NCBI GenBank assembly: GCA_021772435.1
Contig: JAJFLZ010000018.1
Span: 199 to 64,198, forward strand
Origin: Chlamydiota bacterium
Lineage (GTDB): Bacteria; Chlamydiota; Chlamydiia; Chlamydiales; JACKPQ01
Direction of reading: 5' to 3'
Length of the DNA: 64,000 nt
The translations under genes and the position numbers were made by a program. Positions 6,696 through 35,555 of the stretch are shown here, piece after piece (the first letter of the stretch is position 1; every line of letters begins with the position of its first letter). The notes under the pieces are model-generated. The model had not been told where the DNA came from. It searched no databases and saw nothing but the letters and a program-made list of their open reading frames with translations.

Positions 6696-8288
6696 ATGCC
6701 TAAAAAATTACCTATCGGTGTCCAGTCCATCGAGAAGCTTTTATCCGAAGACTTTATCTATGTTGATAAAACAGACAAAATTAAACAGCTAATTGACAGC
6801 GGAAGCCACTATTTCATAGCGCGTCCAAGGCGATTTGGAAAATCTTTATTTGTAAGCACACTAGAAGCTATTTTAAAAGGGAACAAAGACCTGTTTGCAG
6901 ATTGCAAAATCGCTAAAACAGACTATGACTGGGTAGAGCACCCAGTGATTCACTTCGACTTTGCCCAAATTCCAAATAAATCTACTGATGATCTAGAAAA
7001 TAGTATTAAGCGAAAACTAGAACACGTTGCTAAAGAACACAATATTTCCATCGAAATCCCTACCTTGCAAGAGGGGCTGATCAATCTAGTCAAAAAACTT
7101 GCAGAAAAAAACCAAGTAGCCATTCTGGTCGACGAGTACGACAAACCCAAGGTGGATCATCTAAATAATATCGAGATAGCAGATAGTAACCGCGATTTTT
7201 TACGTCGATTTTTTGGTACACTTAAAGGGTTAGATCAGCATCTAAAATTTGTTTTTTTTACAGGTGTTAGCAAATTCGCTCAGGTTTCTCTTTTCTCCGG
7301 CTTAAATAACTTAGAAGACCTGACAATGGACCCAAGTAGCTCTGAGCTGATGGGGTACACAAAAGACGAGCTCAAGGAAAATTTTAAAGAACACATTGCA
7401 GAATTAACAAAGAAAACAAATTGTGCCCCTGAACAGATTTTGAAGATGGTAAAAGAGTGGTACAATGGCTACTGTTTTTCTCAAAATTGTGTTCCTGTCT
7501 ACAATCCTTTTTCAACGCTTTCCTATTTTAAGCGAGGCATCTTTCACGGATACTGGTTTAGCACTGGCACTCCTGCATTCTTAATCGAACAAATCCGTAA
7601 AATGCCCATGCTGTCTACGCAACTCAGCGGCGCTTTATCTACAAGCTCGGAGCTACTAGATATTCTTTCCATGACAGATGTCGACCTAAACGCTTTGATG
7701 TGGCAAACCGGCTACCTAACCATTACAGCTTACGACCCCCAAACAGATCTATATACCCTTGATTTTCCGAACAAAGAAGTGCGAGGAGCCTTTTTTAATT
7801 CCTTGATTAGAGAATTTGCTAAACTCAATTTATCAGGTGTTACAGGCAATGCAAAAGCAATCTGCTCTCATTTAGCCAAATTAGATTTTGAAACTTTTTT
7901 TAAAACCATCAATGCGTACTACGCCAAAATCCCCTACCACCTGTTCACGCAAGCAAAAGAGGGATTTTATCACGCAGTATTTTTGTGCTTGATGGAAGGA
8001 ATAGGTTTACAAGTGAGGGCTGAAGATCCTACGAATATGGGCCGCCTGGATTTAGTCATCGAAACCGACCAAACCGTCTATATTTTTGAGCTCAAAGTCG
8101 ACAAAAGTGCAACTGTTGCTCTAGACCAAGCTGAACTTAATCGCTATTGTGAAAAGTATTCACACCAAAACCGCAATATTGCCATGATCGGCGTTAACTT
8201 TGCCACAGCGACTCGCAACATCTCCGATTGGGCAGTTAATCTTTATGCTCCGGATGCTAACTTAATCCAAAAATATGCGTTGCTTTAG
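6696..8288 (+). CDS. AAA-ATPase-like / PD-(D/E)XK nuclease family protein (cassette 2)
   Basis: 530-aa ORF. The N-terminus LPIGVQSIEKLLSEDFIYVDKTDKIKQLIDSGSHYFIARPRRFGKSLFVSTLE matches the predicted AAA-ATPase (PF09820-type) family that carries a C-terminal PDDEXK_9 domain (RLDLVIE...IFELKVD). SD aggag lies upstream. Confidence 0.8.
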   Translation: MPKKLPIGVQSIEKLLSEDFIYVDKTDKIKQLIDSGSHYFIARPRRFGKSLFVSTLEAILKGNKDLFADCKIAKTDYDWVEHPVIHFDFAQIPNKSTDDLENSIKRKLEHVAKEHNISIEIPTLQEGLINLVKKLAEKNQVAILVDEYDKPKVDHLNNIEIADSNRDFLRRFFGTLKGLDQHLKFVFFTGVSKFAQVSLFSGLNNLEDLTMDPSSSELMGYTKDELKENFKEHIAELTKKTNCAPEQILKMVKEWYNGYCFSQNCVPVYNPFSTLSYFKRGIFHGYWFSTGTPAFLIEQIRKMPMLSTQLSGALSTSSELLDILSMTDVDLNALMWQTGYLTITAYDPQTDLYTLDFPNKEVRGAFFNSLIREFAKLNLSGVTGNAKAICSHLAKLDFETFFKTINAYYAKIPYHLFTQAKEGFYHAVFLCLMEGIGLQVRAEDPTNMGRLDLVIETDQTVYIFELKVDKSATVALDQAELNRYCEKYSHQNRNIAMIGVNFATATRNISDWAVNLYAPDANLIQKYALL

Positions 8289-8289
8289 C

Positions 8290-8331
8290 AGCCACCTCAG
8301 CCTCGAAGCGCTCCCTAGAATTCCTTTTTGA
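8290..8331 (+). repeat. Direct repeat: third, shorter and more diverged copy of the tsaD 3' tail
   Basis: gaa gcg ctc cct aga att cct ttt tga versus tsaD gaa gcc ctg cct aga att cct ttc taa. All differences are synonymous, and weaker similarity extends about 12 nt further upstream. Confidence 0.8.
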
Positions 8332-9277
8332 GTATAGCAATCTGTTCTTTGATACCTTCTAAGCCTGAATCTGGATACAGATTGACATCGTATGGTTTTT
8401 TCCACTGCTTTTTATTGTTGATATGCTCAAGACGAAGCTCTTTGAGCCTATCAATATCGCCATCCCAAGCTTTTGAGATGCGGTGCGAAGGAGCATCTAA
8501 GCGAAAGAATTTCACATACTCGCCATTGTGTTTCTGAGCGGTTTCTTGATCTTTAAAATGAGTAGAATCTGCTCTAAACTTTTTGCAAGCAAAATAGAAT
8601 TCTTCTTTGAGTTTATCTTCAGCGATTTCAAAGTCATGCATCATCACAACATCAAGCTCACCAAATTTAGCGAAATGCTGAGGTAAACCTGCCTTGATTT
8701 GACCAGCTCTTAGCATCATGTATTCAGGCTTTTCTGTTTTTGAAAAATCGATAACAACCCGCGCTCCACCAATTGTTAAATAACCCTGATCAGTATCGAT
8801 TTGGCAAATGTTTTTATCCCCAAGATCCATTTTTAAACCATCAAGATCAGCGACCCCACTTTTCTCTACTGCTAAGTGGCTAAGAGCTGCCAAGGCGATG
8901 CGGTGAGCAAGTAGTTCTGTGCTTTCAATATTTTCGCCATCGCGGGACTGATCCATGATGCTTAGGGCACCAATATTGAGCAGCTTTTGCCCTGTTTGAA
9001 CCTTAAACAGGATCATACGACCCTTATCGTCCTTTCCAGGACCATCGATAATGGGGTTAATCAGCAAGCTGGTGCCCTCGCAAGGAGGTAATTTCAGCTG
9101 TTTGTCAAAAGTGACTGTGCCTAAGTTTCCTAAGATAACATTGGCTTCATTCAAAGCCTTGGCAACTAGACCACCACATACCTTCTCAAGGCTCATGGCG
9201 TGATCCTGAGCAAATATACGCACCTCCTCAATGGAGGCTGGCACTTTCGGCAAATGAGCTGGTACATCGTAAATCAT
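8315..9277 (-). CDS. Hypothetical protein, no recognisable domain
   Basis: 320-aa ORF with no TM or signal peptide. Its last five codons are antisense to tsaD tail copy 3. It is preceded by a consensus promoter (next feature). Confidence 0.7.
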   Translation of the reverse strand: MIYDVPAHLPKVPASIEEVRIFAQDHAMSLEKVCGGLVAKALNEANVILGNLGTVTFDKQLKLPPCEGTSLLINPIIDGPGKDDKGRMILFKVQTGQKLLNIGALSIMDQSRDGENIESTELLAHRIALAALSHLAVEKSGVADLDGLKMDLGDKNICQIDTDQGYLTIGGARVVIDFSKTEKPEYMMLRAGQIKAGLPQHFAKFGELDVVMMHDFEIAEDKLKEEFYFACKKFRADSTHFKDQETAQKHNGEYVKFFRLDAPSHRISKAWDGDIDRLKELRLEHINNKKQWKKPYDVNLYPDSGLEGIKEQIAILKKEF

Positions 9278-9453: not shown

Positions 9454-10356
9454 CTATTTTGTAGATGATAATAGATGTTTATTTGCATGACTCCAATCTT
9501 TACCAAATTGTATTGCCATCCATCGATTTAAAACTGAAATGATACTTTCTATCGATTCGGGAAGACTCATCAGGTTTTTTTGTGTCCTATTCTTTCTTAA
9601 ATAACTATTCCAATTTTTCTGAAGAGCTTCAAACTCATCATTATTAAATATGACTGGTAATTTACTAAGAAGGGTTTTTCTATGACGAAACACCAACTCA
9701 ACAGCTTTTTTCGCAAGTGGGCCATCTAAAGCAGATAACTGGATAAGTGAATAAATATCATGAAAATCTTTCATTCTCGTATTGCTACTTCCTCGGAACA
9801 CAACTGTTTCTAATTTCTCGGCAAAAATGAACTCTTTAGGATAACACTGCAACGTAATCCTGCTCTCAAAAAGTGGCCCTTTCGATGTTGCTGTTAAATC
9901 TATTGGGTGTTCAACCGATTCTACGCAATCACCAAATCCTAAATCCATGCGCATGGTCGTTCTTGTAGCTCCAAATAGAGCTCTAAGTGTAATTTCGGCC
10001 CCTGTATAAGCTAGTTGGGAATGGTCTAGGATTTTGATTTTAACCAATTCAAAAGCAAAGCTATCTTCCACGCTGATCTCGCAAATGGCTTGTAAAACGA
10101 TCTTCAGAGACTGCTGTGCGTTGGACAATTTACGCACAAAAAAATCAAGATCCATGGTTTCTCTGCCAATATAGATATATTTTGCTAAAAGAGTACCACC
10201 TTTAAGTATAAATTTTTCTTTATACGGAGATTGAGCTAAGCGAATTAAAAATCTCTCGAGAATTAAATTCCTCCAAAGCTCAGCAAAAGTGGTCTCTCTC
10301 TGCTTGGCCAAAGCTTTGATTTTCTCTTTGATTGATTGTTCAATGGCATTTTTCAT
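9454..10356 (-). CDS. abiEii: AbiEii/AbiGii-family nucleotidyltransferase toxin (type IV TA)
   Basis: 300-aa ORF. The N-terminal ERFLIRLAQSPYKEKFILKGGTLLAKYIYIGRETMDLDFF matches the DUF1814/AbiEii NTase signature (KGG...R.T.DLDF). An ATGA overlap couples it to the upstream antitoxin gene. Confidence 0.85.
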   Translation of the reverse strand: MKNAIEQSIKEKIKALAKQRETTFAELWRNLILERFLIRLAQSPYKEKFILKGGTLLAKYIYIGRETMDLDFFVRKLSNAQQSLKIVLQAICEISVEDSFAFELVKIKILDHSQLAYTGAEITLRALFGATRTTMRMDLGFGDCVESVEHPIDLTATSKGPLFESRITLQCYPKEFIFAEKLETVVFRGSSNTRMKDFHDIYSLIQLSALDGPLAKKAVELVFRHRKTLLSKLPVIFNNDEFEALQKNWNSYLRKNRTQKNLMSLPESIESIISVLNRWMAIQFGKDWSHANKHLLSSTK

Positions 10357-10949
10357 AACATGAAGGCCGAAATGTAAGAGGTTATGTCAACTCTAAGCTT
10401 TTTTGAATATCTTAAGAGCTTTTCGATGTCTGGCTTTTTATTTTTGCATTCTTTCAAATAAATTTGTAGTGCTTTTAACGCTGTTTCTTTGTCCAAATAG
10501 CGAAAGGCATCTACTATCGTGCGCTCGCGATCGAAAATTTTGAGTTTTCTATTATCGATTTTAACAGTTGTTTGGCCAAGAGTTATATTTCGCATCCGAA
10601 TGACACGAGTATTTTCCCTAACTGGAGCTGAAGTCGTATGTGCAACAGCAATCCAAAACTGTCGCATGATTTCATCAGTCAAATCGTAATAGCATAAAGC
10701 CGAAACTAGACAGATGACCCCATTGGGAATACTTAACGCAGTAACAGCAAGGTCTTCCCATTCAAATCCTTCGTGAAAATCGAAATTGTTAATTTTATAC
10801 ATCCCTCGGCTAATCCGTTCGATTTGCCCTTTTTCACAAAAATAAGCGAGCATTCTAGAAGGGATTCCTGCTTTTCGTCCTTCTGCGGAAGAGAACACCG
10901 CTTTTTTTGACAGAGCTTTTAGCGCTACTGCATACTTTGATTTTGCCAT
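10353..10949 (-). CDS. abiEi: AbiEi-family antitoxin / transcriptional regulator (type IV TA)
   Basis: 198-aa ORF. The N-terminal wHTH-like segment (AGIPSRMLAYFCEKGQIERISRGMYKI) is typical of AbiEi_4. It lies immediately 5' of abiEii with a 4-nt overlap. Confidence 0.8.
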   Translation of the reverse strand: MAKSKYAVALKALSKKAVFSSAEGRKAGIPSRMLAYFCEKGQIERISRGMYKINNFDFHEGFEWEDLAVTALSIPNGVICLVSALCYYDLTDEIMRQFWIAVAHTTSAPVRENTRVIRMRNITLGQTTVKIDNRKLKIFDRERTIVDAFRYLDKETALKALQIYLKECKNKKPDIEKLLRYSKKLRVDITSYISAFML

Positions 10950-11324: not shown

Positions 11325-12776
11325 ATGAAATTTGAGCTTGGGCTCGCTAAAAAATATCTTTTGCCCAAACGCAGGCAATTAAGTGTCTCTTTAATTTGCT
11401 TGCTATCTGTTTTTGTCATCACACTTGTGGTGTGGCTACTTTTGACGTTTTTGTCTGTGATGAGCGGCATCGAAAAGGGCTGGCTCGCCAAATTAACATC
11501 ACTCAATGCCCCCTTACGCATTAATCCTACTGAAAAGTATTTTAACTCATATTACTACAAAATCGATTCAGTGTCTGGCGCCTCCCATTATTCTGTAAAG
11601 ACAATTGGTGAAAAGCTGCGCTCAGAATGGGTCGATCCATACGACACAGAAAGCGATATGGAAATCCCCCTCGATTGGCAGCTGCCCGAGAAAAATACTG
11701 AGGGAGAGTCGCTTGATCTGGTTAAGGAAGCTTTTGCAGCAGTCGACAAGGTGTCTCATACGGCAGCTCAAGAGTATGATATGAGCGGCGCCATGCTCAG
11801 GTTAAAACTGGTGCGTGGTGATTTCCACAGTTTTGTTACGCAAGCTGCCTATTTGACAACGTTTGCTGATCAAAGCCCTACAGTAAAAAAACTTCTTTCT
11901 GAGCCGATGGATGAAATTTTACCCAATGATCGGGGCGAACCAGGGATTTTGATCCCGAAAAGCTTTGAAGGTAATGGCGTGAGGCAAGGCGATCGCGGCT
12001 TTTTGTCGTACGGCAGCGGCTCTACAGGACAGGAGCAAAGATTAGGTGTGTACGTAGCCGGTTTTTACGACCCAGGCATTATGTCAATTGGCCCCAAATG
12101 CTTGCTCGTGCCCAAGTCTATCGCTGAGAATTTGCACACAGCCGGTGAAGCCTATACCCTCGATCGCACGCAAGCAACCGGTATTCAGGTTTGGTTTGAC
12201 GATTTGAAAGAGGCCCAGGCGATTAAGGCGAAGCTTCAAGACGAGTTTGAACAAAGGGGCATCGCACCGTATTTTACGATTACAACTTATCACGATTATG
12301 ATTTTGCTAAGGATCTGCTCCAGCAGTTTGAAAGCGATAAGATGCTGTTTACATTGATTGGCGTGATTATTTTGGTCGTGGCTGCTAGCAATATTATTTC
12401 ATCGCTGATTTTGCTTGTGAATAACAAGAAAAAAGAGATCGGTATTTTGCAGTCGATGGGAGCTAGCCGAGCTAGCATCACGATGGTGTTTGCCATTTGC
12501 GGGATCACAATTGGCCTTGTGAGCTCACTCGTTGGCGGCTTAGCTGCCTATTTGACATTGCATAACATTGATCATGTCGTGCAGTTTTTGAGCTGGATGC
12601 AGGGTCACGATATGTTTAATGCGCTCTTTTACGGCGCCAGCCTTCCAAACACTTTAAGCGCTGATAGTGTGAAATTCATTTTGATTGCAACACCGCTGAT
12701 CTCTCTTTTGGCAGGCCTTGTGCCGGCGATTAAAGCCTCCCGCATGCAACCGAGCGATATTTTGAGGTCGTCATGA
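11325..12776 (+). CDS. lolC: LolC/E-family lipoprotein-releasing system permease (FtsX-like)
   Basis: 483-aa ORF with an N-terminal TM, a large periplasmic loop, then the C-terminal FtsX domain (KKKEIGILQSMGASRASI and 3 TM). It lies upstream of lolD with a 4-nt overlap. Confidence 0.8.
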   Translation: MKFELGLAKKYLLPKRRQLSVSLICLLSVFVITLVVWLLLTFLSVMSGIEKGWLAKLTSLNAPLRINPTEKYFNSYYYKIDSVSGASHYSVKTIGEKLRSEWVDPYDTESDMEIPLDWQLPEKNTEGESLDLVKEAFAAVDKVSHTAAQEYDMSGAMLRLKLVRGDFHSFVTQAAYLTTFADQSPTVKKLLSEPMDEILPNDRGEPGILIPKSFEGNGVRQGDRGFLSYGSGSTGQEQRLGVYVAGFYDPGIMSIGPKCLLVPKSIAENLHTAGEAYTLDRTQATGIQVWFDDLKEAQAIKAKLQDEFEQRGIAPYFTITTYHDYDFAKDLLQQFESDKMLFTLIGVIILVVAASNIISSLILLVNNKKKEIGILQSMGASRASITMVFAICGITIGLVSSLVGGLAAYLTLHNIDHVVQFLSWMQGHDMFNALFYGASLPNTLSADSVKFILIATPLISLLAGLVPAIKASRMQPSDILRSS

Positions 12777-13405
12777 GCGTTTTAAAATGTAAAAATTTGA
12801 AAAAAGCTTATCCAGGGCTAGAGCTGCTCAAGGGCATTGATCTAGATATCCATAACGGACAGAGCCTCGCGATCATGGGTCCATCCGGCGTGGGTAAAAG
12901 TACGCTTTTGCATTTGCTCGGCCTTTTGGATGCGCCCGATGCTGGCACGATCGAAATTTTGGGCCAGCCGGTAAAAAAACGAGACTATCCCTTATTTCGC
13001 AATCGCCATATTGGCTTTGTGTTTCAGGCGTTTCATCTGCTTGAAGATGAGTCGGTGCTTACAAATGTTTTGATGCCAGCAAAAATTGGTCGGCTTGATC
13101 GTAAATCCAGAGCCTTAGAGCTGATCGAACGCGTTGGACTCAAGGGACGCGAAAAACAACTCGCTAAGCACCTATCTGGCGGGGAAAAACAACGCGTTGC
13201 AATTGCAAGGGCGCTTTGTAATGACCCTGATTTGATCTTTGCCGATGAGCCTACCGGTAACCTCGATGAGGGCTGCTCAAAAGAGATCCAAGATCTGCTA
13301 TTTCAAACCGCATGGAATAAAGCTCTTGTCATCGTCACACACGATACAAATTTAGCTAGTGCATGCGATAAAACCCTCACATTGAATCACGGCTTGCTAA
13401 AATAA
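12773..13405 (+). CDS. lolD: Lipoprotein-releasing system ATP-binding protein
   Basis: 210-aa ORF with Walker [13 protein letters not shown] signature [15 protein letters not shown], and Walker [13 protein letters not shown]. Confidence 0.88.
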
Positions 13406-13423: not shown

Positions 13424-15709
13424 ATGTTAATGAAAAAATTAGCCATTCTGTCTCTAGGCACGCTCTCATTATCAGCTGCCATATCGACACCGTCACAATT
13501 TGTTCTCAAACATCGTGAGCATAACGGCATTGGTTACAATACCGGCTACACGACCGCAGAAGCTTTTTTAGCCAGCAGATGGAAAAACGGATTTATGCCA
13601 TATGCCGATTTACGTGGCCATGCGCTCGATGATGGTAGATTTGCAGCAAATGCTGGCCTTGGATTGCGCTACAATTGGGCTGGATATACCGTAGGCGGCA
13701 ATTTTTACTATGACTACCGCGACGCTAAAAACCTTCAACCTCAACAACTCGGCGGTGGCCTAGAGTTTTTAACAAACAGCTACGACATTCGCATCAATGG
13801 CTACGGTCCCATTGCCGATACGACAGTGGAAAAGGCTCCCAAATTTGTTAAATTTCAAGGTAACGGAGCCATTTTTAGACGTCGATTTAAAGCAGCATTG
13901 CCTATGATCGAAGGTGAATATGGAATGCCGTTTGGATTGCGTTGTGGTTTGGCAAATTTTTACGGCGCTATCGGCCCTTACTATCTGTTTGAGAAAAAAA
14001 TCAGCGGCAATAGATTGGGCGATGCAGTTGGCGGACAGGCAAGAGTTATGCTCGATGTCATTCAACGCTTTGGATTTCAGTTTAATTTTTCGTATGACAA
14101 GATTTACAAGTGGGTTTTACAAGGCACAGCAGGGATTTCAATTCCGCTTGGCAATAGAGAGACCATTTTTAAAAGCAAAAGCTTCTTGTGTGAGGCTCGC
14201 AATCAACTCCCCGTACGCAAAGAAATTATTCCAATCGATTGCAAAAGCAAAAGAGCACTGAGCTCATCGCGCATTATTTTTGTCGATAACACCTCTAGCT
14301 CAGATGGAACGTTTGAGAGCCCTTATCCGACAACTGCCTTAGCCATGGCAAATTCAAACTCAGGCGATATTATCTATATCTTCCCAGGCGATGGCACAAC
14401 GACTGGGTACAGTACAGCGATTACAATGCTACCCAATCAAACCATTCAAGGATCTGGCGTCAAGCTAGATTTAGGAGGTGGGCTCGTTGTCCCAGCACAA
14501 ACAAATCTGTTTCCAAAATTAACAAGCCCTGGAAACACGATCACACTCACGCAAAACAACACAGTGAAGGGATTAAATATCACCTCAGCTGGCGCAGCAG
14601 GCGTTATCCAAGGACCAACAATTAGCGGGACAAACCGTATTGAACAAAATTTTATTCACAATTGTCTTAACGGGATCAATGTGGGTTCTAGCACGACTTC
14701 TACAAATTATGTCATTATAAAGAATACGATTCGACAGTGCACACAAGATGGCATCTTACTAAATCTAACTGGAGTTTCAAGCAATCAGGTCAACGCTGTA
14801 ATTGCTCAAAATACGGCATCTGGCATTGGTGCCAATGCTGTTTCCATCGATGCCACTGGAGGAGCCACAGCTGGAGTCGCTGTTATCGATAACCAAATTG
14901 GAACATCAACCAATGGCCTTGTTTTTGACACAACATCTGTAGCCCAGGCCAATGTTTTAGCTAAATATAATCAAGCATCGGGGGCGATGACTAATGGCAT
15001 GCTACTTGCTTCGTCAGACACCTCAACTGGCACCTACACGCTCACTGGCAATATTGTAAACGGCGGGACAAACGCTGTCCAAATTAATACAGCGCTTTCT
15101 GGAACTCTATCAGCAAATTTGGTCCGAAATAGATTAATAGATGGTGGATCTAACTCCGATGGGATTTTAAATATAGTTTCTGGAGGCACGACAACATTAG
15201 CTGTCGATTTAACTGAAAATATCATCACCGGTTTAGGTGTTGGAACATTAATAGATGGAATTACAGCTACAAACTTTTCTCTAACCGCTACAAATAATTT
15301 ATACTACAACACGTCAAATGGTGGTATTTTCAATACCGGAATCATCACTGTAACAGGTGATTATTCGTATCATTTAACAGGCAACCGATTTATAAATATT
15401 ACGACAAGACCTATTCGCCTTGCCTCGCAGTCGGCAACGTTGATGCAAGCTGATCTATTTAATAACGTCTTGCAAGGCACCATCCAAGATGCAACTTTAC
15501 TCGTTGCAGATGGTGGTAACATCTGCGCTACAATTATTGGAAACAGCGCTCCAGGTTTTAATTTAGAACTGAATCAATCGAATCCTGCGATACTGCAAAT
15601 TGAATCTCCCTCACCCGTTTCCTCAGCAAGTGTGCTCGCAATGAATGGTTTTGACGCTATTTCGGAGACAGGAACAATTACATACGTTCCCTTCGGCACT
15701 TGTCCGTAA
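13424..15709 (+). CDS. Outer-membrane protein with N-terminal inverse-autotransporter-like beta-barrel and C-terminal right-handed beta-helix passenger
   Basis: 761-aa ORF with a signal peptide (MLMKKLAILSLGTLSLSAA). Residues ~25-245 carry GLGLRYNWAGYTVGGNFYYDYRDAK...GGGLEFLTNSYDIRINGYGPI, like the intimin/invasin beta-domain. Residues ~285-761 start with a beta-helix cap (IIFVDNTSSSDGTFESPYPT...GDIIYIFPGDG) followed by many ~22-aa N/G/T-rich PbH1-type repeats. Confidence 0.65.
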   Translation: MLMKKLAILSLGTLSLSAAISTPSQFVLKHREHNGIGYNTGYTTAEAFLASRWKNGFMPYADLRGHALDDGRFAANAGLGLRYNWAGYTVGGNFYYDYRDAKNLQPQQLGGGLEFLTNSYDIRINGYGPIADTTVEKAPKFVKFQGNGAIFRRRFKAALPMIEGEYGMPFGLRCGLANFYGAIGPYYLFEKKISGNRLGDAVGGQARVMLDVIQRFGFQFNFSYDKIYKWVLQGTAGISIPLGNRETIFKSKSFLCEARNQLPVRKEIIPIDCKSKRALSSSRIIFVDNTSSSDGTFESPYPTTALAMANSNSGDIIYIFPGDGTTTGYSTAITMLPNQTIQGSGVKLDLGGGLVVPAQTNLFPKLTSPGNTITLTQNNTVKGLNITSAGAAGVIQGPTISGTNRIEQNFIHNCLNGINVGSSTTSTNYVIIKNTIRQCTQDGILLNLTGVSSNQVNAVIAQNTASGIGANAVSIDATGGATAGVAVIDNQIGTSTNGLVFDTTSVAQANVLAKYNQASGAMTNGMLLASSDTSTGTYTLTGNIVNGGTNAVQINTALSGTLSANLVRNRLIDGGSNSDGILNIVSGGTTTLAVDLTENIITGLGVGTLIDGITATNFSLTATNNLYYNTSNGGIFNTGIITVTGDYSYHLTGNRFINITTRPIRLASQSATLMQADLFNNVLQGTIQDATLLVADGGNICATIIGNSAPGFNLELNQSNPAILQIESPSPVSSASVLAMNGFDAISETGTITYVPFGTCP

Positions 15710-28373: not shown

Positions 28374-30287
28374 ATGTCAAAGATGCGCAGATCAATCGCT
28401 TATATTGAACCAGCTAGCGCCACCGCCGGAGAGCGTGGCACGTGGAAATTTATCTATACGACAGCTTCGAATCTACCTAAGGGCACCAAGTGTAAATTTG
28501 ACTTGATGACTAAAGGGCGCGATATCGAATGGGAAGTGCCCGAGACTAGCCTGAAAAAGAAATCCAATGTGATCTGGATGGAGCTTCCTAATGGTAAGAG
28601 CGTGACTGCTGAGGCGATGACACCTAAGGACGCCTACACACCTTATTTTGAATTTACTCTGCCAGCAGAAGTTAAAGGCGGCGAGAGTATCGCTATTTTT
28701 ATGGGCAGCCCTGGCGGTGATCCTGTCAAAAATGGTTCCTTAGCTCAGCAATATGTCTATAGACGTAGGCCTTTTAACCTATACATCGATCCGAAGGGCA
28801 AGGGCAATTACAAAGAGCCCGAAGTTTTTGCAATGGATGTTAAAGGTGGCCCTTTGCATTCATTAAGAGTTATCGCCCCATCTATGGTTTCTAAAAATCA
28901 GCGTTTTGACATTATTGTGCGTTTTGAAGATTGCTACGGCAACCTCACATCCAACGCTCCTGAAGGCACGCTGATTGAACTAAGCTATAATAATCTACGT
29001 GAAAATTTGAATTGGAAGCTGTTTGTTCCAGAGACAGGTTTTATCGCCCTTCCGAATTTATACTTTAATGAATCTGGCCTATATCGCTTAAAGCTTGTAA
29101 ACATGATGGATAAGCAAGAGTTTCTCTCCGCGCCAATTAAGTGTTTTGATGAGGATGTTCCAGGTTTGTTCTGGGGCACGTTCCACGGTGAGTCCACACG
29201 CGTAGATTCAGCTGAAAATATCGAAACTGCTCTGCGCCATTTCCGCGATGACCAAGCAATGCAATTTTACGGCACGTCTTGCTTTGATACTGATCAAGAA
29301 ACACCGAATGAGATCTGGAAACTTATTTCTGTTCACGTGGCTGAATTTAACGAAGAAGACAGGTTCGCCACTTATCCAGGCTTTCAGTGGCAGGGGTCAC
29401 CTGGAACAGAAGGGATCCGCCAAATCATCCATCTCAAAGACAACAAGCCCTTGCTTCGAAGCAAAGATGTGAAAAGCAATCAGTTAAAGAAAATATACAA
29501 GTCATATTCTCCGAAGGATTTGCTCTCAATCCCTTCTTTTACAATGGCAAAAGGATACCACTACAACTTTAAAGAGCATGACACTGAAAGAGAACCCGTC
29601 GTAGAAATTTATAACAGCTGGGGCTGCTCTGAATGCACAGCCAAGGAAGGGAATCCCCGTCCGATTAAATCGCTTGGAAAAAAAGGTCTCTCTGAAGTTT
29701 CTGACGGCTCAATCAGAGCAGCATTGAATAGCGGCTGTCGATTTGGTTTTGTTGCTGGTGGCTTAGATGACCGCGGCATTTACACAGATTTATTTAAGAG
29801 CGATCAGGTTCAGTACAGCCCCGGATTAACAGCTGTGATGGCCGGATCACACGCACGCGATAGCTTAGCCGCCGCACTAAACCGCAAAGCTTGCTACGCA
29901 ACTACAGGGGCCCGCATGATCTTAGTCTCTAAAATTGCTGGTAAGGGCGTTGGCAGTGAACTATCCACTGAGATAAAACCCGGACTTTTGTACAACAGGC
30001 ATATCACAGGCCATGTCGCTGGTACAGCCCCGATTCAAGAGATTATGATTGTGCGTAACGGTGAGGTCTTCCACACCTACCATCCACATGAGATGGCGTT
30101 TGATTTTGAACTTGATGATAACGAACCTCTGGAAAATGTTGCCGTCTCAGCACCCGATGGTCGCCCCTCGTTTGTCTACTACTACATGCGTGTGATTCAA
30201 GAAGATGGCCATGTGGGTTGGGCCTCGCCTATTTGGGTCGATTTAGTCCCCCCAGCACCTTCAGCTAAAAAATCGAAGAAAAAATGA
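28374..30287 (+). CDS. Large hypothetical protein, tentatively DUF3604/PHP-like metallohydrolase fold with a degenerate metal motif
   Basis: 637-aa ORF. LFWGTFHGESTRVDS sits where related families have WGDLHxHS. ACYATTGARMIL and the C-terminal YYYMRVIQEDGHVGWASPIWV resemble DUF3604 ends. The family name is tentative. Confidence 0.4.
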   Translation: MSKMRRSIAYIEPASATAGERGTWKFIYTTASNLPKGTKCKFDLMTKGRDIEWEVPETSLKKKSNVIWMELPNGKSVTAEAMTPKDAYTPYFEFTLPAEVKGGESIAIFMGSPGGDPVKNGSLAQQYVYRRRPFNLYIDPKGKGNYKEPEVFAMDVKGGPLHSLRVIAPSMVSKNQRFDIIVRFEDCYGNLTSNAPEGTLIELSYNNLRENLNWKLFVPETGFIALPNLYFNESGLYRLKLVNMMDKQEFLSAPIKCFDEDVPGLFWGTFHGESTRVDSAENIETALRHFRDDQAMQFYGTSCFDTDQETPNEIWKLISVHVAEFNEEDRFATYPGFQWQGSPGTEGIRQIIHLKDNKPLLRSKDVKSNQLKKIYKSYSPKDLLSIPSFTMAKGYHYNFKEHDTEREPVVEIYNSWGCSECTAKEGNPRPIKSLGKKGLSEVSDGSIRAALNSGCRFGFVAGGLDDRGIYTDLFKSDQVQYSPGLTAVMAGSHARDSLAAALNRKACYATTGARMILVSKIAGKGVGSELSTEIKPGLLYNRHITGHVAGTAPIQEIMIVRNGEVFHTYHPHEMAFDFELDDNEPLENVAVSAPDGRPSFVYYYMRVIQEDGHVGWASPIWVDLVPPAPSAKKSKKK

Positions 30288-33494: not shown

Positions 33495-35555
33495 ATGCGC
33501 GTATTTGCCCTTCTAGCTCTTTGCTCCTCTGTTTTTGCAAAAGAAGCAACCGTTGATCTTTTAAACCCCGTTTATCAAGACGGTGTCATGACAACAGAAA
33601 GCGGAGGCGTCATCTCTGGGAAAAACCTGAGAATTCAAGCTAAGCACATTCACTACGACACTCTAAAACGCTCAATTTTAGCAGAAGGTGATTTACTCGT
33701 TGAGCACGAAAACCACTTTTTTGTAGGGAAAAAATTCACATACAATTTTTTGACGAAATCAGGAACTGTTTACGATGGAACAACGTTTGAAGATTTGTGG
33801 TTTTTAGGTGGCAAAAAAATCACCCTAATGCCCGATGGCAGCTACCGCATTCAAGGAGCATTTATCACCACCAGCGACAATAAAGATCGCACTTGGGATA
33901 TTTATTCTCACAGCACAAGTGTAACACCTGACTCTTATCTGGTTGCTCAAACTCCTAAATTTCGCGTCCTTGGCGCGCCCGTTCTTATCCTGCCATCGCT
34001 TAAAAGCGATCTAAAATGGCAGCCCAAAAGTCCTGTGAGCTACCAAGCGGGCTGGATAAAAGGGCAAGGACCGCGCATTTCTGCTGAATACCGCGTCTAC
34101 TCATGGGAAGACGTTAACATCTTCTCTAGGCTTGAGGTGCGACCCGATTTTCAAAAACTGGGCATTACAGGCGCCCTAGAAACATCCTATCTACCCAAAA
34201 ATAGCCAAACGCGTTTTGTATCAAAAAACTTCATCCAAAAAGACACCTTTTTTAATGACAACGATCCAGGCAAAGAAAGCTTTAGATTTCGCGCTCAAGG
34301 CTTAATCAATTCCGAAAACAAAGAAAAAACAAATACTTTTCACACGAGTTGGGACTGGTACGACGACAAAAACCTGCCGCTCACGTTTCAAGGCGATAAT
34401 TTTGCTCATAATAAAGCGCAAGAAACTGAAATGCTCATTCGGCGTATTGGTGATAAAACAATCTCAGGCTTTTATTTCAGGCCAAGAATTAACAGCTTTC
34501 AGGGCTTTAACCAGCAGCTTCCGGCGCTAAATCTTTCCTTGCACCCGATCGAAATTGGGAAATCTGGCGTGATCATGGAAAACAACACGCGCGCTGCTTA
34601 CCTCAATTACGTCTACTCTGATGATGTCGATGGCCTTATCCCTGATTTTCGCTCCGGGCGCCTAGAGATGGAACACAACCTCTACCGAGCCTTTAGAACA
34701 AAAGCCTTCACCTTCACCCCGCTTGCAGGCTTTTCGGGTATTTTTTACACAAATAGCCCCAACAAAGGAGAAGCCTCCCAAGCTATCTTTCACTACGAGG
34801 GGATGTTAGATACAAAGCTCTACCGCACCTACTCGCGCTACAAACACCAACTAGAGCCCTATTTGCACTACTACGGACTCACCTTCCCCACCATCCGCGT
34901 CGATGACTACTTCATCTACAGCATTGCCGATGGCTATAACCGGCTCAATACGCTCAAGCCTGGCATCAAAAATGCGCTCTACCTGCCAGGTGAGCTCATG
35001 CCAACGCTGTCTGCAGATCTATATTCTTACGCATTTTTTGGAGACCAAACCTACAAGCTGCTCATGCCCAAAACCTATCTCGATCTTTTATGGAATATTT
35101 CTAACGTCACATTTGGCGCTCATGGAGCCTGGAACTTTGAAGAATCTGTACTTGATACGGGCAATCTTTCGCTTCTCTGGACACTAAACGCAAACTTTGC
35201 GACCTATTTTGAATTTCGACACCGCAGCCGTTTTGATTGGCGCAAAGACCAGCGCTACAACTTCGTGCTCGATGTCACCCGCTCCATCGATGAGCTGTTA
35301 GATTCGCCCATTTCAGATGGTCGAAATACACTGCTGGCCAGATTTCAAATTAAGCTCCACCCTGAATGGATCCTTCGCGTTAGAACACACATGGGTTGGG
35401 GCCGCAGTGACGAACCATCCTACAGCGAAGGTACAATCGATTTACTCCATATGGTCACATCGTCATGGAAGCTGCGCACATCTTTAAGTTGGCTCGTTCC
35501 CACCAAAGGATTCACCGCCTTTAACGGTGCTCTCAACCTAACCAATCATTTCTAA
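33495..35555 (+). CDS. lptD: LptD/OstA-like outer-membrane LPS-assembly protein (tentative)
   Basis: 686-aa ORF with a signal peptide and an OstA-like N-terminal beta-jellyroll segment (GGVISGKNLRIQAKHIHYD...AEGDLLVEH). A long Tyr/aromatic-rich beta-strand region ends in an aromatic C-terminus (LNLTNHF). Confidence 0.55.
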   Translation: MRVFALLALCSSVFAKEATVDLLNPVYQDGVMTTESGGVISGKNLRIQAKHIHYDTLKRSILAEGDLLVEHENHFFVGKKFTYNFLTKSGTVYDGTTFEDLWFLGGKKITLMPDGSYRIQGAFITTSDNKDRTWDIYSHSTSVTPDSYLVAQTPKFRVLGAPVLILPSLKSDLKWQPKSPVSYQAGWIKGQGPRISAEYRVYSWEDVNIFSRLEVRPDFQKLGITGALETSYLPKNSQTRFVSKNFIQKDTFFNDNDPGKESFRFRAQGLINSENKEKTNTFHTSWDWYDDKNLPLTFQGDNFAHNKAQETEMLIRRIGDKTISGFYFRPRINSFQGFNQQLPALNLSLHPIEIGKSGVIMENNTRAAYLNYVYSDDVDGLIPDFRSGRLEMEHNLYRAFRTKAFTFTPLAGFSGIFYTNSPNKGEASQAIFHYEGMLDTKLYRTYSRYKHQLEPYLHYYGLTFPTIRVDDYFIYSIADGYNRLNTLKPGIKNALYLPGELMPTLSADLYSYAFFGDQTYKLLMPKTYLDLLWNISNVTFGAHGAWNFEESVLDTGNLSLLWTLNANFATYFEFRHRSRFDWRKDQRYNFVLDVTRSIDELLDSPISDGRNTLLARFQIKLHPEWILRVRTHMGWGRSDEPSYSEGTIDLLHMVTSSWKLRTSLSWLVPTKGFTAFNGALNLTNHF

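What the first reader, a model, noticed from the sequence alone, without database searches (positions are those of the whole stretch)
13424..15709. Inverse-autotransporter-type barrel fused to a pectin-lyase-like beta-helix passenger (topological mirror image of Pmp adhesins)
After a signal peptide, the first ~220 residues look like the intimin/invasin (type Ve) beta-domain (GLGLRYNW..GGNFYYDYRDAK..GGGLEFLTNSYDIRINGYGPI). The C-terminal ~470 residues are a right-handed beta-helix, with a cap IIFVDNTSSSDGTFESPYPT..GDIIYIFPGDG followed by a long run of PbH1-like turns. Known inverse autotransporters mostly export Ig-like or lectin passengers. Chlamydial Pmp adhesins have a beta-helix passenger but in the classical type Va order (passenger N-terminal, barrel C-terminal). 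A beta-helix exported through an N-terminal barrel would be an unusual combination. The gene sits directly behind lolCD.
Basis: partly seen in the sequence, partly recalled or inferred. Interest (0 to 1): 0.7.

Follow-up and report, generated by a model that had tools for sequence, protein, structure and literature searches.

The report
Inverse autotransporter with β-helix passenger
This gene from an environmental chlamydia-like bacterium encodes an outer-membrane protein whose N-terminal intimin/invasin-type barrel most likely pushes a long C-terminal β-helix rod onto the cell surface; the design is real and unusual among studied examples, but it was noted in 2016, is very common in this group, and has never been tested experimentally.

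Summary
An AlphaFold2 model (pLDDT 93.9) has an N-terminal β-barrel whose best solved matches are the invasin and intimin β-domains (TM 0.72-0.74, E about 1e-9 to 1e-10). Pfam IAT_beta passes its cutoff. Residues 271-755 form a right-handed parallel β-helix that matches PL6 lyases, AlgE epimerases, Pel9A and phage tailspikes. It has an Asn ladder with rungs of about 27 residues. It is not a Pmp homologue: there are no GGA[ILV] repeats and no C-terminal barrel.

The architecture is not new. Heinz et al. 2016 reported invasin_beta + "pectin lyase" proteins, and NCBI already names relatives this way. An exhaustive search finds 564 clusters at 50% identity with E ≤ 1e-30. Nearly all named ones come from Chlamydiota MAGs, often with several copies per genome.

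The lolCD adjacency is shared only with the closest genome, so it is not a family trait. The barrel and the membrane-proximal helix cap are conserved, while the distal helix varies. No catalytic residues are conserved, which favours an adhesin or surface fibre over an enzyme.

Verdict: a new member of a kind known from sequence analysis but never characterised experimentally. Interest is moderate to low.

The parts
13424..15709 (+). Complete gene for a 761-aa inverse (type Ve) autotransporter with a β-helix passenger
   Evidence: ORF. Identical protein P0001 in public data. AF2 model pLDDT 93.9, pTM 0.85.
13424..13480 (+). Sec-type signal peptide (residues 1-19; the true start may be Met3, as homologues begin MKKL)
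   Evidence: Sequence MLMKKLAILSLGTLSLSAA|IS. Modelled as a helix at 4-17 with low pLDDT. Read by eye; no predictor was run.
13493..14149 (+). Intimin/invasin-type outer-membrane β-barrel (residues about 24-242)
   Evidence: Pfam IAT_beta 30 bits, above the 22.3 cutoff. Foldseek top hits 4e1t, 5g26 and 4e1s with TM 0.72-0.74. The family profile hits invasin at E 4e-7. Majority-residue fraction 0.56 across 87 homologues.
14150..14233 (+). Linker (residues 243-270): short helical turns carrying the conserved Cys256, then the conserved extended segment RNQLPVRKEIIP, inferred to cross the barrel lumen
   Evidence: pLDDT 62-70 for 241-260 and 91 for 261-270. E267 is invariant; R265, I268 and I269 are ≥90% conserved. 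C256 is present in 79 of 87 sequences. Passage through the lumen is inferred from the intimin/invasin structures and was not measured.
14234..14593 (+). Membrane-proximal N-terminal cap and first rungs of the β-helix (residues 271-390), the most conserved part of the passenger
   Evidence: Majority-residue fraction 0.61 overall and 0.68-0.79 for residues 281-340. Invariant residues N289, G295, P300, A307, G322, P364 and G383. Some homologues hit DUF1565 here.
14594..15523 (+). Variable β-helix body (residues 391-700) with an Asn ladder and rungs of about 27 residues
   Evidence: Asn at 409, 434, 463, 490, 516, 543, 569, 599, 625, 654 and 681, spaced 25-30 residues apart. Majority-residue fraction 0.29 with many indels. 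Only Asn and Gly are conserved. Foldseek matches β-helix proteins.
15524..15706 (+). Distal C-terminal cap (residues 701-761) with the conserved cysteine pair C701/C760 (…GTCP end)
   Evidence: C701 in 77 of 87 sequences and C760 in 74 of 87; 12 of the rest are gaps. Short helix at 734-740 and a terminal hairpin. The disulfide is inferred.
11325..13405 (+). Neighbouring lolC/E-like permease (11325-12776) and lolD-like ATPase (12773-13405). They are same-strand context and possibly co-transcribed, but are not part of the system.
   Evidence: Pfam FtsX and ABC_tran. Best NCBIfam matches are TIGR02212 lolCE (172 bits, cutoff 362) and TIGR02211 LolD (215 bits, cutoff 308). The adjacency to the IAT gene is seen only in L003 among 79 related loci.

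Best explanation
The gene encodes a type Ve (inverse) autotransporter of an environmental member of the Chlamydiota. Inferred pathway: the Sec signal peptide takes the protein to the periplasm. The BAM complex inserts the N-terminal intimin/invasin-type barrel (residues about 24-242) into the outer membrane. The conserved linker (RNQLPVRKEIIP, about 259-270) occupies the barrel lumen. The C-terminal passenger is then threaded out as a hairpin in the N-to-C direction. The first part to emerge is the highly conserved membrane-proximal cap (residues about 281-390). I propose that it folds first and templates rung-by-rung stacking of the β-helix (rungs of about 27 residues, Asn ladder), and that this folding drives export. 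This would mirror the C-terminal autochaperone or stable core of classical β-helical autotransporters. The finished product would be a rod anchored in the outer membrane; a length of roughly 8 nm is my estimate from about 17 rungs. Its variable distal surface mediates adhesion to host cells or other surfaces. A conserved Cys701-Cys760 pair probably staples the distal cap. Shown here: the gene, the barrel fold and its family assignment, the β-helix fold, the conservation gradient, and the family size and taxonomy. Inferred: export, surface exposure, folding order, the disulfide and the adhesin role.
For: Barrel: Pfam IAT_beta is above its cutoff and hits 51 of 53 homologues. The AF2 model has pLDDT 93.9. 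Foldseek's top three matches are invasin and intimin β-domains with TM 0.72-0.74 and E about 1e-9 to 1e-10, against ≥5e-5 for all other barrels. The family profile hits invasin 4e1t at 4e-7. Passenger: the isolated model has pLDDT 94.4 and pTM 0.92. All its significant PDB matches are right-handed β-helices. The profile hits AlgE4 and GH87. Pfam Beta_helix hits 25 of 53 relatives. The Asn ladder is documented. Conservation gradient: barrel 0.56, proximal cap 0.61, body 0.29. This fits a conserved export and folding module plus a variable exposed surface. No conserved acidic or basic residues occur in the helix body, even among the 17 closest relatives. The gene diverges faster than its neighbours: about 58% identity against 76-88% versus L003. 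Several genomes carry multiple copies. N-to-C hairpin secretion for type Ve, and the statement that no autochaperone is known in type Ve, come from reviews PMC6555100 and PMC8151025.
Against: There is no experimental evidence of export or surface exposure for any member of this architecture; none was found in five literature searches. Model coordinates could not be inspected, so the linker's position in the lumen, the exact strand count (12-14 DSSP segments) and the C701-C760 distance are unverified. The query's own Pfam barrel hit is partial (residues 66-133), and the query has no Beta_helix Pfam hit of its own. The structural neighbours of the passenger are mostly carbohydrate-active enzymes and tailspikes, not known adhesin passengers. 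A disulfide spanning 59 residues, if formed in the periplasm, could hinder passage through a narrow barrel. From my own knowledge, intimin and invasin tolerate a comparable C-terminal disulfide.
Confidence: 0.8

Rival explanations
1. A surface-displayed carbohydrate-active enzyme. The inverse autotransporter barrel exports a β-helix that cleaves or modifies a host or environmental polysaccharide, rather than acting as an adhesin.
For: The best structural neighbours of the passenger are PL6 alginate lyases, GH136 and GH87 hydrolases, AlgE epimerases, Pel9A and phage depolymerase tailspikes. A UDP-glucose 6-dehydrogenase gene lies immediately downstream.
Against: In the helix body the only residues conserved across 87 relatives, or across the 17 closest, are Asn, Gly and two Cys. 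There is no conserved Asp, Glu, Lys, Arg or His set, as a shared catalytic site would require. TM-scores to the enzymes are low (0.2-0.5) with 9-17% identity, which is typical of generic β-helix similarity. The ugd neighbour is syntenic only in the closest genome.
Confidence: 0.12
2. The β-helix stays in the periplasm. The barrel would be only a membrane anchor or pore, and the C-terminal domain a NosD-like periplasmic β-helix.
For: Some relatives hit the Pfam NosD model, which describes a periplasmic copper-binding β-helix. No export experiment exists. Environmental chlamydiae have unusual, disulfide-cross-linked envelopes (my own knowledge).
Against: The barrel is specifically of the intimin/invasin type, not a generic one. 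A highly conserved linker segment (E267 invariant; pLDDT 91 for 261-270) sits between the barrel and the helix, as in type Ve proteins. The variable, fast-diverging helix body fits an exposed surface better than a periplasmic one. NosD hits occur in only 5 of 53 relatives and reflect generic PbH1 repeats.
Confidence: 0.05
3. A ZirT-like translocase. The barrel would mainly secrete separately encoded partner proteins, in a two-partner-like manner, as Heinz et al. proposed for ZirT and SinH.
For: Heinz et al. 2016 proposed this for some inverse-autotransporter barrels. The weak NCBIfam hit is to SinH.
Against: This protein carries its own 490-residue passenger fused in cis. No conserved co-encoded partner appears next to family members, and contexts differ between loci. 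The SinH hit is 17.6 bits against a cutoff of 999 and covers only the shared barrel core.
Confidence: 0.03

Closest known systems
Intimin (EHEC/EPEC Eae) and invasin (Yersinia InvA): type Ve inverse autotransporters, Pfam IAT_beta PF11924
   Same: Same order of signal peptide, N-terminal barrel, linker and C-terminal passenger. The barrel is the closest structural match (TM 0.72-0.74) and passes the Pfam cutoff. There is a conserved cysteine pair at the extreme C-terminus, as in the terminal lectin-like domains of intimin and invasin (my own knowledge).
   Different: The passenger is one continuous right-handed β-helix instead of a chain of Ig-like (Big) domains capped by a lectin-like domain. 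There is no periplasmic LysM domain; the barrel starts right after the signal peptide. Sequence identity to the solved barrels is only 13-14%.
The 'invasin_beta + pectin lyase (IPR011050)' group described in silico by Heinz et al. 2016 (Genome Biol Evol 8:1690, PMC4943183)
   Same: Exactly this domain architecture. The paper also notes inverse-autotransporter barrels in Chlamydiae and argues that the barrel is functionally equivalent to the classical one.
   Different: That report is a network-figure observation with no structure, family analysis or experiment. Added here: a confident 3D model, the conservation gradient, the family size (564 clusters at E ≤ 1e-30), the Chlamydiota multi-copy distribution and the absence of conserved catalytic residues.
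Chlamydial polymorphic membrane proteins (Pmps) and other classical type Va β-helical autotransporters (pertactin, Hbp)
   Same: A β-helical passenger attached to a 12-stranded-type outer-membrane barrel. They form multi-copy, fast-diverging families in chlamydiae, and the passenger region next to the barrel is conserved, as with the autochaperone or stable core.
   Different: The domain order is opposite, so the export and folding direction is presumably opposite too (N-to-C). There are no GGA[ILV] repeats (0 in the query, family median 0). There is no Autotransporter (PF03797) barrel. No Va passenger appears among the top 50 structural matches. The resemblance is analogy, not homology.
Pectate-lyase-superfamily β-helix proteins (PL6 alginate lyases, AlgE4/AlgE6 epimerases, Pel9A, phage tailspikes)
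   Same: The same right-handed parallel β-helix fold with PbH1-type rungs and an Asn ladder. The N-terminal cap motif resembles DUF1565.
   Different: No conserved catalytic residues. The domain is fused to an outer-membrane barrel. Structural and sequence similarity is low (TM 0.2-0.5, 9-17% identity).

Membership tests
Type Ve inverse autotransporter (intimin/invasin family) | Matches the IAT_beta (PF11924) barrel model above its curated threshold | tested here: met
   30 bits against a gathering cutoff of 22.3, E 5e-7, aligned only over residues 66-133. 51 of 53 homologues also hit it, best E 1.7e-13. The family profile hits invasin 4e1t at E 4e-7.
Type Ve inverse autotransporter (intimin/invasin family) | N-terminal domain folds as an intimin/invasin-like (12-stranded) β-barrel | tested here: met
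   The AF2 model has pLDDT above 90 over residues 24-242. The Foldseek top three are 4e1t, 5g26 and 4e1s, with TM 0.72-0.74 on target and 260-267 aligned columns. The exact strand count was not verified (12-14 DSSP segments; no coordinates were available).
Type Ve inverse autotransporter (intimin/invasin family) | Domain order: signal peptide, then barrel, then linker, then C-terminal passenger | tested here: met
   Sequence and model: signal peptide 1-19, barrel 24-242, linker 243-270, passenger 271-761.
Type Ve inverse autotransporter (intimin/invasin family) | Linker occupies the barrel lumen | tested here: inconclusive
   There is a conserved extended segment at 261-270 (pLDDT 91, E267 invariant). 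The alignments span the full crystal constructs, which include the linker. Model coordinates could not be inspected.
Type Ve inverse autotransporter (intimin/invasin family) | Passenger exposed on the cell surface and exported N-to-C via a hairpin | not testable with these tools
   This needs protease shaving, immunofluorescence or stalled-intermediate experiments.
Type Ve inverse autotransporter (intimin/invasin family) | Passenger built of Ig-like (Big) domains with a lectin-like tip, and a periplasmic LysM domain (typical, not obligatory) | tested here: not met
   No Big or LysM Pfam hits at E ≤ 10. The passenger is a β-helix. The barrel follows the signal peptide directly. Reviews describe these features as typical, not defining.
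Pectin-lyase-like right-handed parallel β-helix superfamily | Right-handed parallel β-helix fold | tested here: met
   The isolated model has pLDDT 94.4. All matches at E ≤ 1e-3 are β-helix proteins: 7dmk, 5gqc, 7c7d, with 5lw3 and 1ru4 just beyond.
Pectin-lyase-like right-handed parallel β-helix superfamily | Sequence match to the Beta_helix / PbH1 / NosD models | tested here: inconclusive
   The query itself has no hit. 25 of 53 aligned homologues hit PF13229 (best E 2.9e-23) and 5 hit NosD. The family profile hits AlgE4 at 2e-5.
Pectin-lyase-like right-handed parallel β-helix superfamily | Conserved catalytic residues of a lyase, hydrolase or epimerase | tested here: not met
   Only Asn, Gly and Cys are conserved in residues 380-761, both family-wide and in the 17 closest relatives.
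Chlamydial Pmp / classical type Va autotransporter | Repeated GGA(I/L/V) and FxxN motifs in the passenger, and a C-terminal Autotransporter barrel | tested here: not met
   0 GGA[ILV] in the query and a family median of 0. No PF03797 or Pmp Pfam hit. The barrel is N-terminal.

The most novel reading that the evidence does not exclude
This large, multi-copy, fast-diverging family may be the functional counterpart in environmental chlamydiae of the Pmp adhesins of the Chlamydiaceae. Its strongly conserved membrane-proximal cap (residues about 281-390) may be the first autochaperone or stable-core element in a type Ve system, nucleating N-to-C vectorial folding of a β-helix. That would be a natural mirror-image experiment for the folding-driven secretion model of classical autotransporters. 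The conserved linker Cys256 may additionally tether the protein into the disulfide-cross-linked chlamydial envelope, in place of intimin's peptidoglycan-binding LysM domain.
Probability: 0.3. Interest if true: 0.6.

Novelty: new member of a known kind. Interest (0 to 1): 0.35.

Why it matters
Current type V secretion reviews still describe inverse-autotransporter passengers as Ig-like or lectin domains that fold one by one, and state that no autochaperone or stable core is known in this class (PMC6555100, PMC8151025). A β-helix is a single contiguous fold, so exporting it N-to-C through an intimin-type barrel is a natural reciprocal test. It asks whether vectorial β-helix folding, and a barrel-proximal folding nucleus, are general to type V secretion. 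For chlamydial biology, the family is a good candidate for the host-attachment proteins of environmental chlamydiae. It comprises hundreds of clusters, often several copies per genome, and combines a conserved export module with a variable surface. These benefits require experiments. On the sequence side the architecture is already recorded in the literature and in database annotation, so the finding is a well-supported annotation, not a discovery.

Tried and rejected
1. A sequence search of the single protein against PDB found nothing meaningful. Only the family profile reached invasin and the β-helix enzymes.
3. Functional link to lolCD: rejected. A tblastn of the window's LolC, LolD, Ugd and IspA proteins against 79 related loci finds this neighbourhood only in L003, the closest genome. 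Paralogues L004, L008, L082 and L084 lie in unrelated contexts.
4. Paralogues in the window: none (phmmer against all six-frame ORFs of at least 100 aa).
5. Pmp homology: rejected (no GGA[ILV] motifs).
6. Enzyme hypothesis: disfavoured, because no polar catalytic residues are conserved.
7. Organism identification from RNA genes failed: Rfam found no hits in the 64 kb. The cluster look-up returned no names. Taxonomy therefore rests on the titles of the related MAGs.
8. Five literature searches found no paper on chlamydial inverse autotransporters with β-helix passengers beyond Heinz et al. 2016. The supplements of that paper were not held.
9. The promoter and terminator scans were uninformative. 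There is one weak promoter-like site inside the lolD 3' end, and no + strand terminator-like site between lolD and the gene or just downstream of it.
Full report
**1. The observation**

The window holds one long ORF at 13424..15709 on the + strand, 761 aa. The N-terminus MLMKKLAILSLGTLSLSAA|IS reads as a Sec signal peptide without a lipobox cysteine. This was judged by eye, and the model shows a low-confidence helix at 4-17. Homologues begin MKKL, so Met3 may be the true start.

The gene is not a chance ORF. An identical protein (P0001) is present in public data on three contigs. There are 269 homologues in the word-indexed search. There are 1895 representatives in the exhaustive search: 1284 at E ≤ 1e-10 and 564 at E ≤ 1e-30. 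The window has no paralogue.

**2. The N-terminal domain**

- Pfam IAT_beta (PF11924) scores 30 bits against a gathering cutoff of 22.3, but aligns only residues 66-133.
- The only NCBIfam hit is a weak match to the inverse autotransporter SinH over the same core.
- Fifty-one of 53 aligned homologues hit IAT_beta on their own.
- A profile of the family hits the invasin β-domain 4e1t at E 4e-7.
- An AlphaFold2 model built on an 87-sequence alignment is very confident: mean pLDDT 93.9, pTM 0.85. It gives an all-β domain over residues 24-242.
- Foldseek against PDB ranks invasin 4e1t (E 3.8e-10, TM 0.72 on target) and intimin 5g26/4e1s (TM 0.74) first. The next barrels are NalP, EspP, OmpG and BrkA at E ≥ 5e-5 with TM 0.35-0.43.

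That criterion is not met, so the barrel is of the inverse-autotransporter type. I could not inspect coordinates. The exact strand count (12-14 DSSP segments) and the lumenal position of the linker therefore remain inferred.

**3. The linker**

Residues 243-260 form short helical turns of lower confidence (pLDDT 62-70). They carry Cys256, which is conserved in 79 of 87 sequences. Residues 261-270 (QLPVRKEIIP) are extended and confident (pLDDT 91). E267 is invariant, and R265, I268 and I269 are at least 90% conserved. Ten extended residues are about the length needed to cross a barrel. This matches the intimin/invasin arrangement and is an inference.

**4. The C-terminal domain**

- The query itself has no Beta_helix Pfam hit. 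However, 25 of 53 homologues hit PF13229 (best E 2.9e-23), 5 hit NosD and 1 hits DUF1565.
- The family profile hits the AlgE4 mannuronan epimerase (2e-5), a GH87 α-1,3-glucanase and other β-helix proteins in PDB.
- Modelled alone, residues 266-761 give pLDDT 94.4 and pTM 0.92.
- All significant Foldseek matches are right-handed parallel β-helices: PL6 alginate lyases, GH136 lacto-N-biosidase, GH87 glucanases, AlgE6, Pel9A pectate lyase and phage tailspikes.
- TM-scores are modest (0.2-0.5), as expected for repetitive folds aligned in different registers.
- A ladder of asparagines at 409, 434, 463, 490, 516, 543, 569, 599, 625, 654, 681, 707 and 741 is spaced 25-34 residues apart. It marks rungs of about 27 residues and is conserved across the family.
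- No classical autotransporter passenger appears in the top 50 matches.

**5. Conservation pattern and what it implies**

Across 87 homologues the majority-residue fraction by region is:

| Region | Residues | Majority-residue fraction |
|---|---|---|
| Barrel | 23-245 | 0.56 |
| Membrane-proximal cap | 273-390 | 0.61 (0.68-0.79 for 281-340) |
| Helix body | 391-700 | 0.29, with many indels |
| Distal cap | 701-761 | 0.38 |

Family members in that alignment range from 632 to 1046 aa, and some representatives are longer. Some have long N-terminal extensions before the barrel.

In the helix body only Asn, Gly and two Cys (C701, C760) are conserved. This holds even among the 17 closest relatives, and there is no acidic or basic set that could be a shared active site. 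The passenger is rich in Thr, Gly, Asn, Ile and Ser and poor in charged residues. Compared with the closest genome (L003), the flanking LolC, LolD, Ugd and IspA proteins are 76-88% identical, while this protein is about 58% identical.

Together these features describe a conserved export-and-folding module plus a rapidly diverging exposed surface. That favours an adhesin or surface fibre over an enzyme.

**6. Mechanism proposed**

The proposed steps are Sec export, BAM insertion of the barrel, and hairpin export of the passenger through the barrel in the N-to-C direction. This is the direction established for intimin and invasin (reviews PMC6555100; PMC8151025).

A β-helix is one contiguous fold, so the first-emerging, most conserved cap (about 281-390) is the natural folding nucleus. 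It would be the mirror image of the C-terminal autochaperone or stable core of type Va β-helical passengers. The 2021 review states that no such element has been identified in inverted autotransporters, and that intimin's Ig domains fold independently. This is therefore a testable new hypothesis, not a shown fact.

The conserved C701/C760 pair probably staples the distal cap. From my own knowledge, intimin and invasin have a comparable C-terminal disulfide. Cys256 in the periplasmic part of the linker might cross-link into the disulfide-bonded chlamydial envelope. That is speculation.

**7. Context**

The gene lies 18 nt downstream of an ABC ATPase, which is preceded by an FtsX-type permease. 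Their best NCBIfam matches are LolD and LolC/E, both below the curated cutoffs. No + strand terminator-like site lies between lolD and the gene, so co-transcription is possible.

This order (lolC-lolD-IAT-ugd-ispA) recurs only in L003 among 79 related loci. Paralogues and more distant relatives sit in unrelated neighbourhoods. The adjacency is lineage-local synteny and not a functional module.

**8. Distribution**

Of the 79 genomic loci recovered, nearly all carry titles of Chlamydiales, Chlamydiia, Parachlamydiales, Rhabdochlamydiaceae or Simkaniaceae MAGs. A minority are labelled Verrucomicrobia or other phyla, and I did not verify that binning.

Several assemblies have multiple copies: at least 5 in JACKPQ, at least 4 in JAUILX and JAJFMD, and at least 3 in CAVTNO, JAPLSW and DATAHB. 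These are lower bounds, because only one peptide pattern was scanned and only the best 80 hits were kept.

The window's organism is therefore an uncultured member of the Chlamydiota. Its nearest relative in the species-representative set is "Chlamydiales bacterium HK-STAS-VERR_A-4".

**9. Comparison with what is known, and novelty**

The protein meets the tested defining features of type Ve autotransporters: the barrel model, the barrel fold and the domain order. It lacks the typical but non-defining Ig-like, lectin and LysM domains. It is not a Pmp, having no GGA[ILV] motifs and no C-terminal barrel. "Mirror image of Pmp" is a fair analogy only.

The architecture itself was already reported. 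Heinz et al. 2016 describe "a defined group ... [quoted passage not shown] They also mention Chlamydiae among the phyla carrying such barrels (PMC4943183). NCBI already names relatives "inverse autotransporter beta domain-containing protein" or "right-handed parallel beta-helix repeat-containing protein".

I found no experimental or dedicated study of these proteins. Mainstream reviews still describe type Ve passengers as Ig-like or lectin.

**10. Verdict**

The protein is a new member of a kind known from sequence analysis and never characterised experimentally. It is not a new architecture, and the lolCD link does not hold. Interest is moderate to low (0.35). The remaining value lies in the N-to-C β-helix folding question and in the possible role of the family as the adhesins of environmental chlamydiae.

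Noticed in passing
window 9454-10949 (-), with 6696-8288 (+) and 8315-9277 (-): An AbiEi antitoxin / AbiEii nucleotidyltransferase toxin pair (type IV TA / abortive-infection module) lies just upstream of rpmG-lolC. Next to it are an AAA-ATPase_like + PDDEXK_9 nuclease protein and a 320-aa ORF with no Pfam hit. In the closest genome (L003) this position holds a 1022-aa ORF instead, which suggests a mobile or defence insertion.
   Followed up: partly
window 33495-35555 (+) and 28374-30287 (+): Two large ORFs have essentially no family assignment. The 686-aa ORF has no Pfam hit at all. The 637-aa ORF has only a short, weak DUF3604 match.
   Followed up: no
window 1-64000: No Rfam family reaches its gathering score anywhere in the 64 kb, so no tRNA, rRNA or riboswitch was detected. 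This is a long RNA-gene-free stretch. The higher GC at 2-6 kb corresponds to the zwf/opcA/tsaD protein genes, not to rRNA.
   Followed up: partly
residue 256 of the protein (window 14189-14191); family-wide: A single cysteine in the periplasm-side part of the linker is conserved in 79 of 87 family members, with no conserved partner cysteine in the barrel (C174 is present in only 20 of 87). It may form an intermolecular disulfide in the cross-linked chlamydial envelope. This is untested.
   Followed up: partly
related proteins P0023, P0145, P0162, P0175, P0195: Some family members carry N-terminal extensions of 360-575 residues before the barrel. These are possible periplasmic domains analogous to intimin's LysM region. 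Their nature was not examined.
   Followed up: no
loci L015, L018, L020, L031, L036, L042, L051, L070, L076: Some family members sit on MAGs labelled Verrucomicrobia, Acidobacteria, Gammaproteobacteria or Pseudomonadota. These are either mis-binned chlamydial contigs or evidence of wider spread or horizontal transfer, as Heinz et al. suggested. This was not resolved.
   Followed up: no
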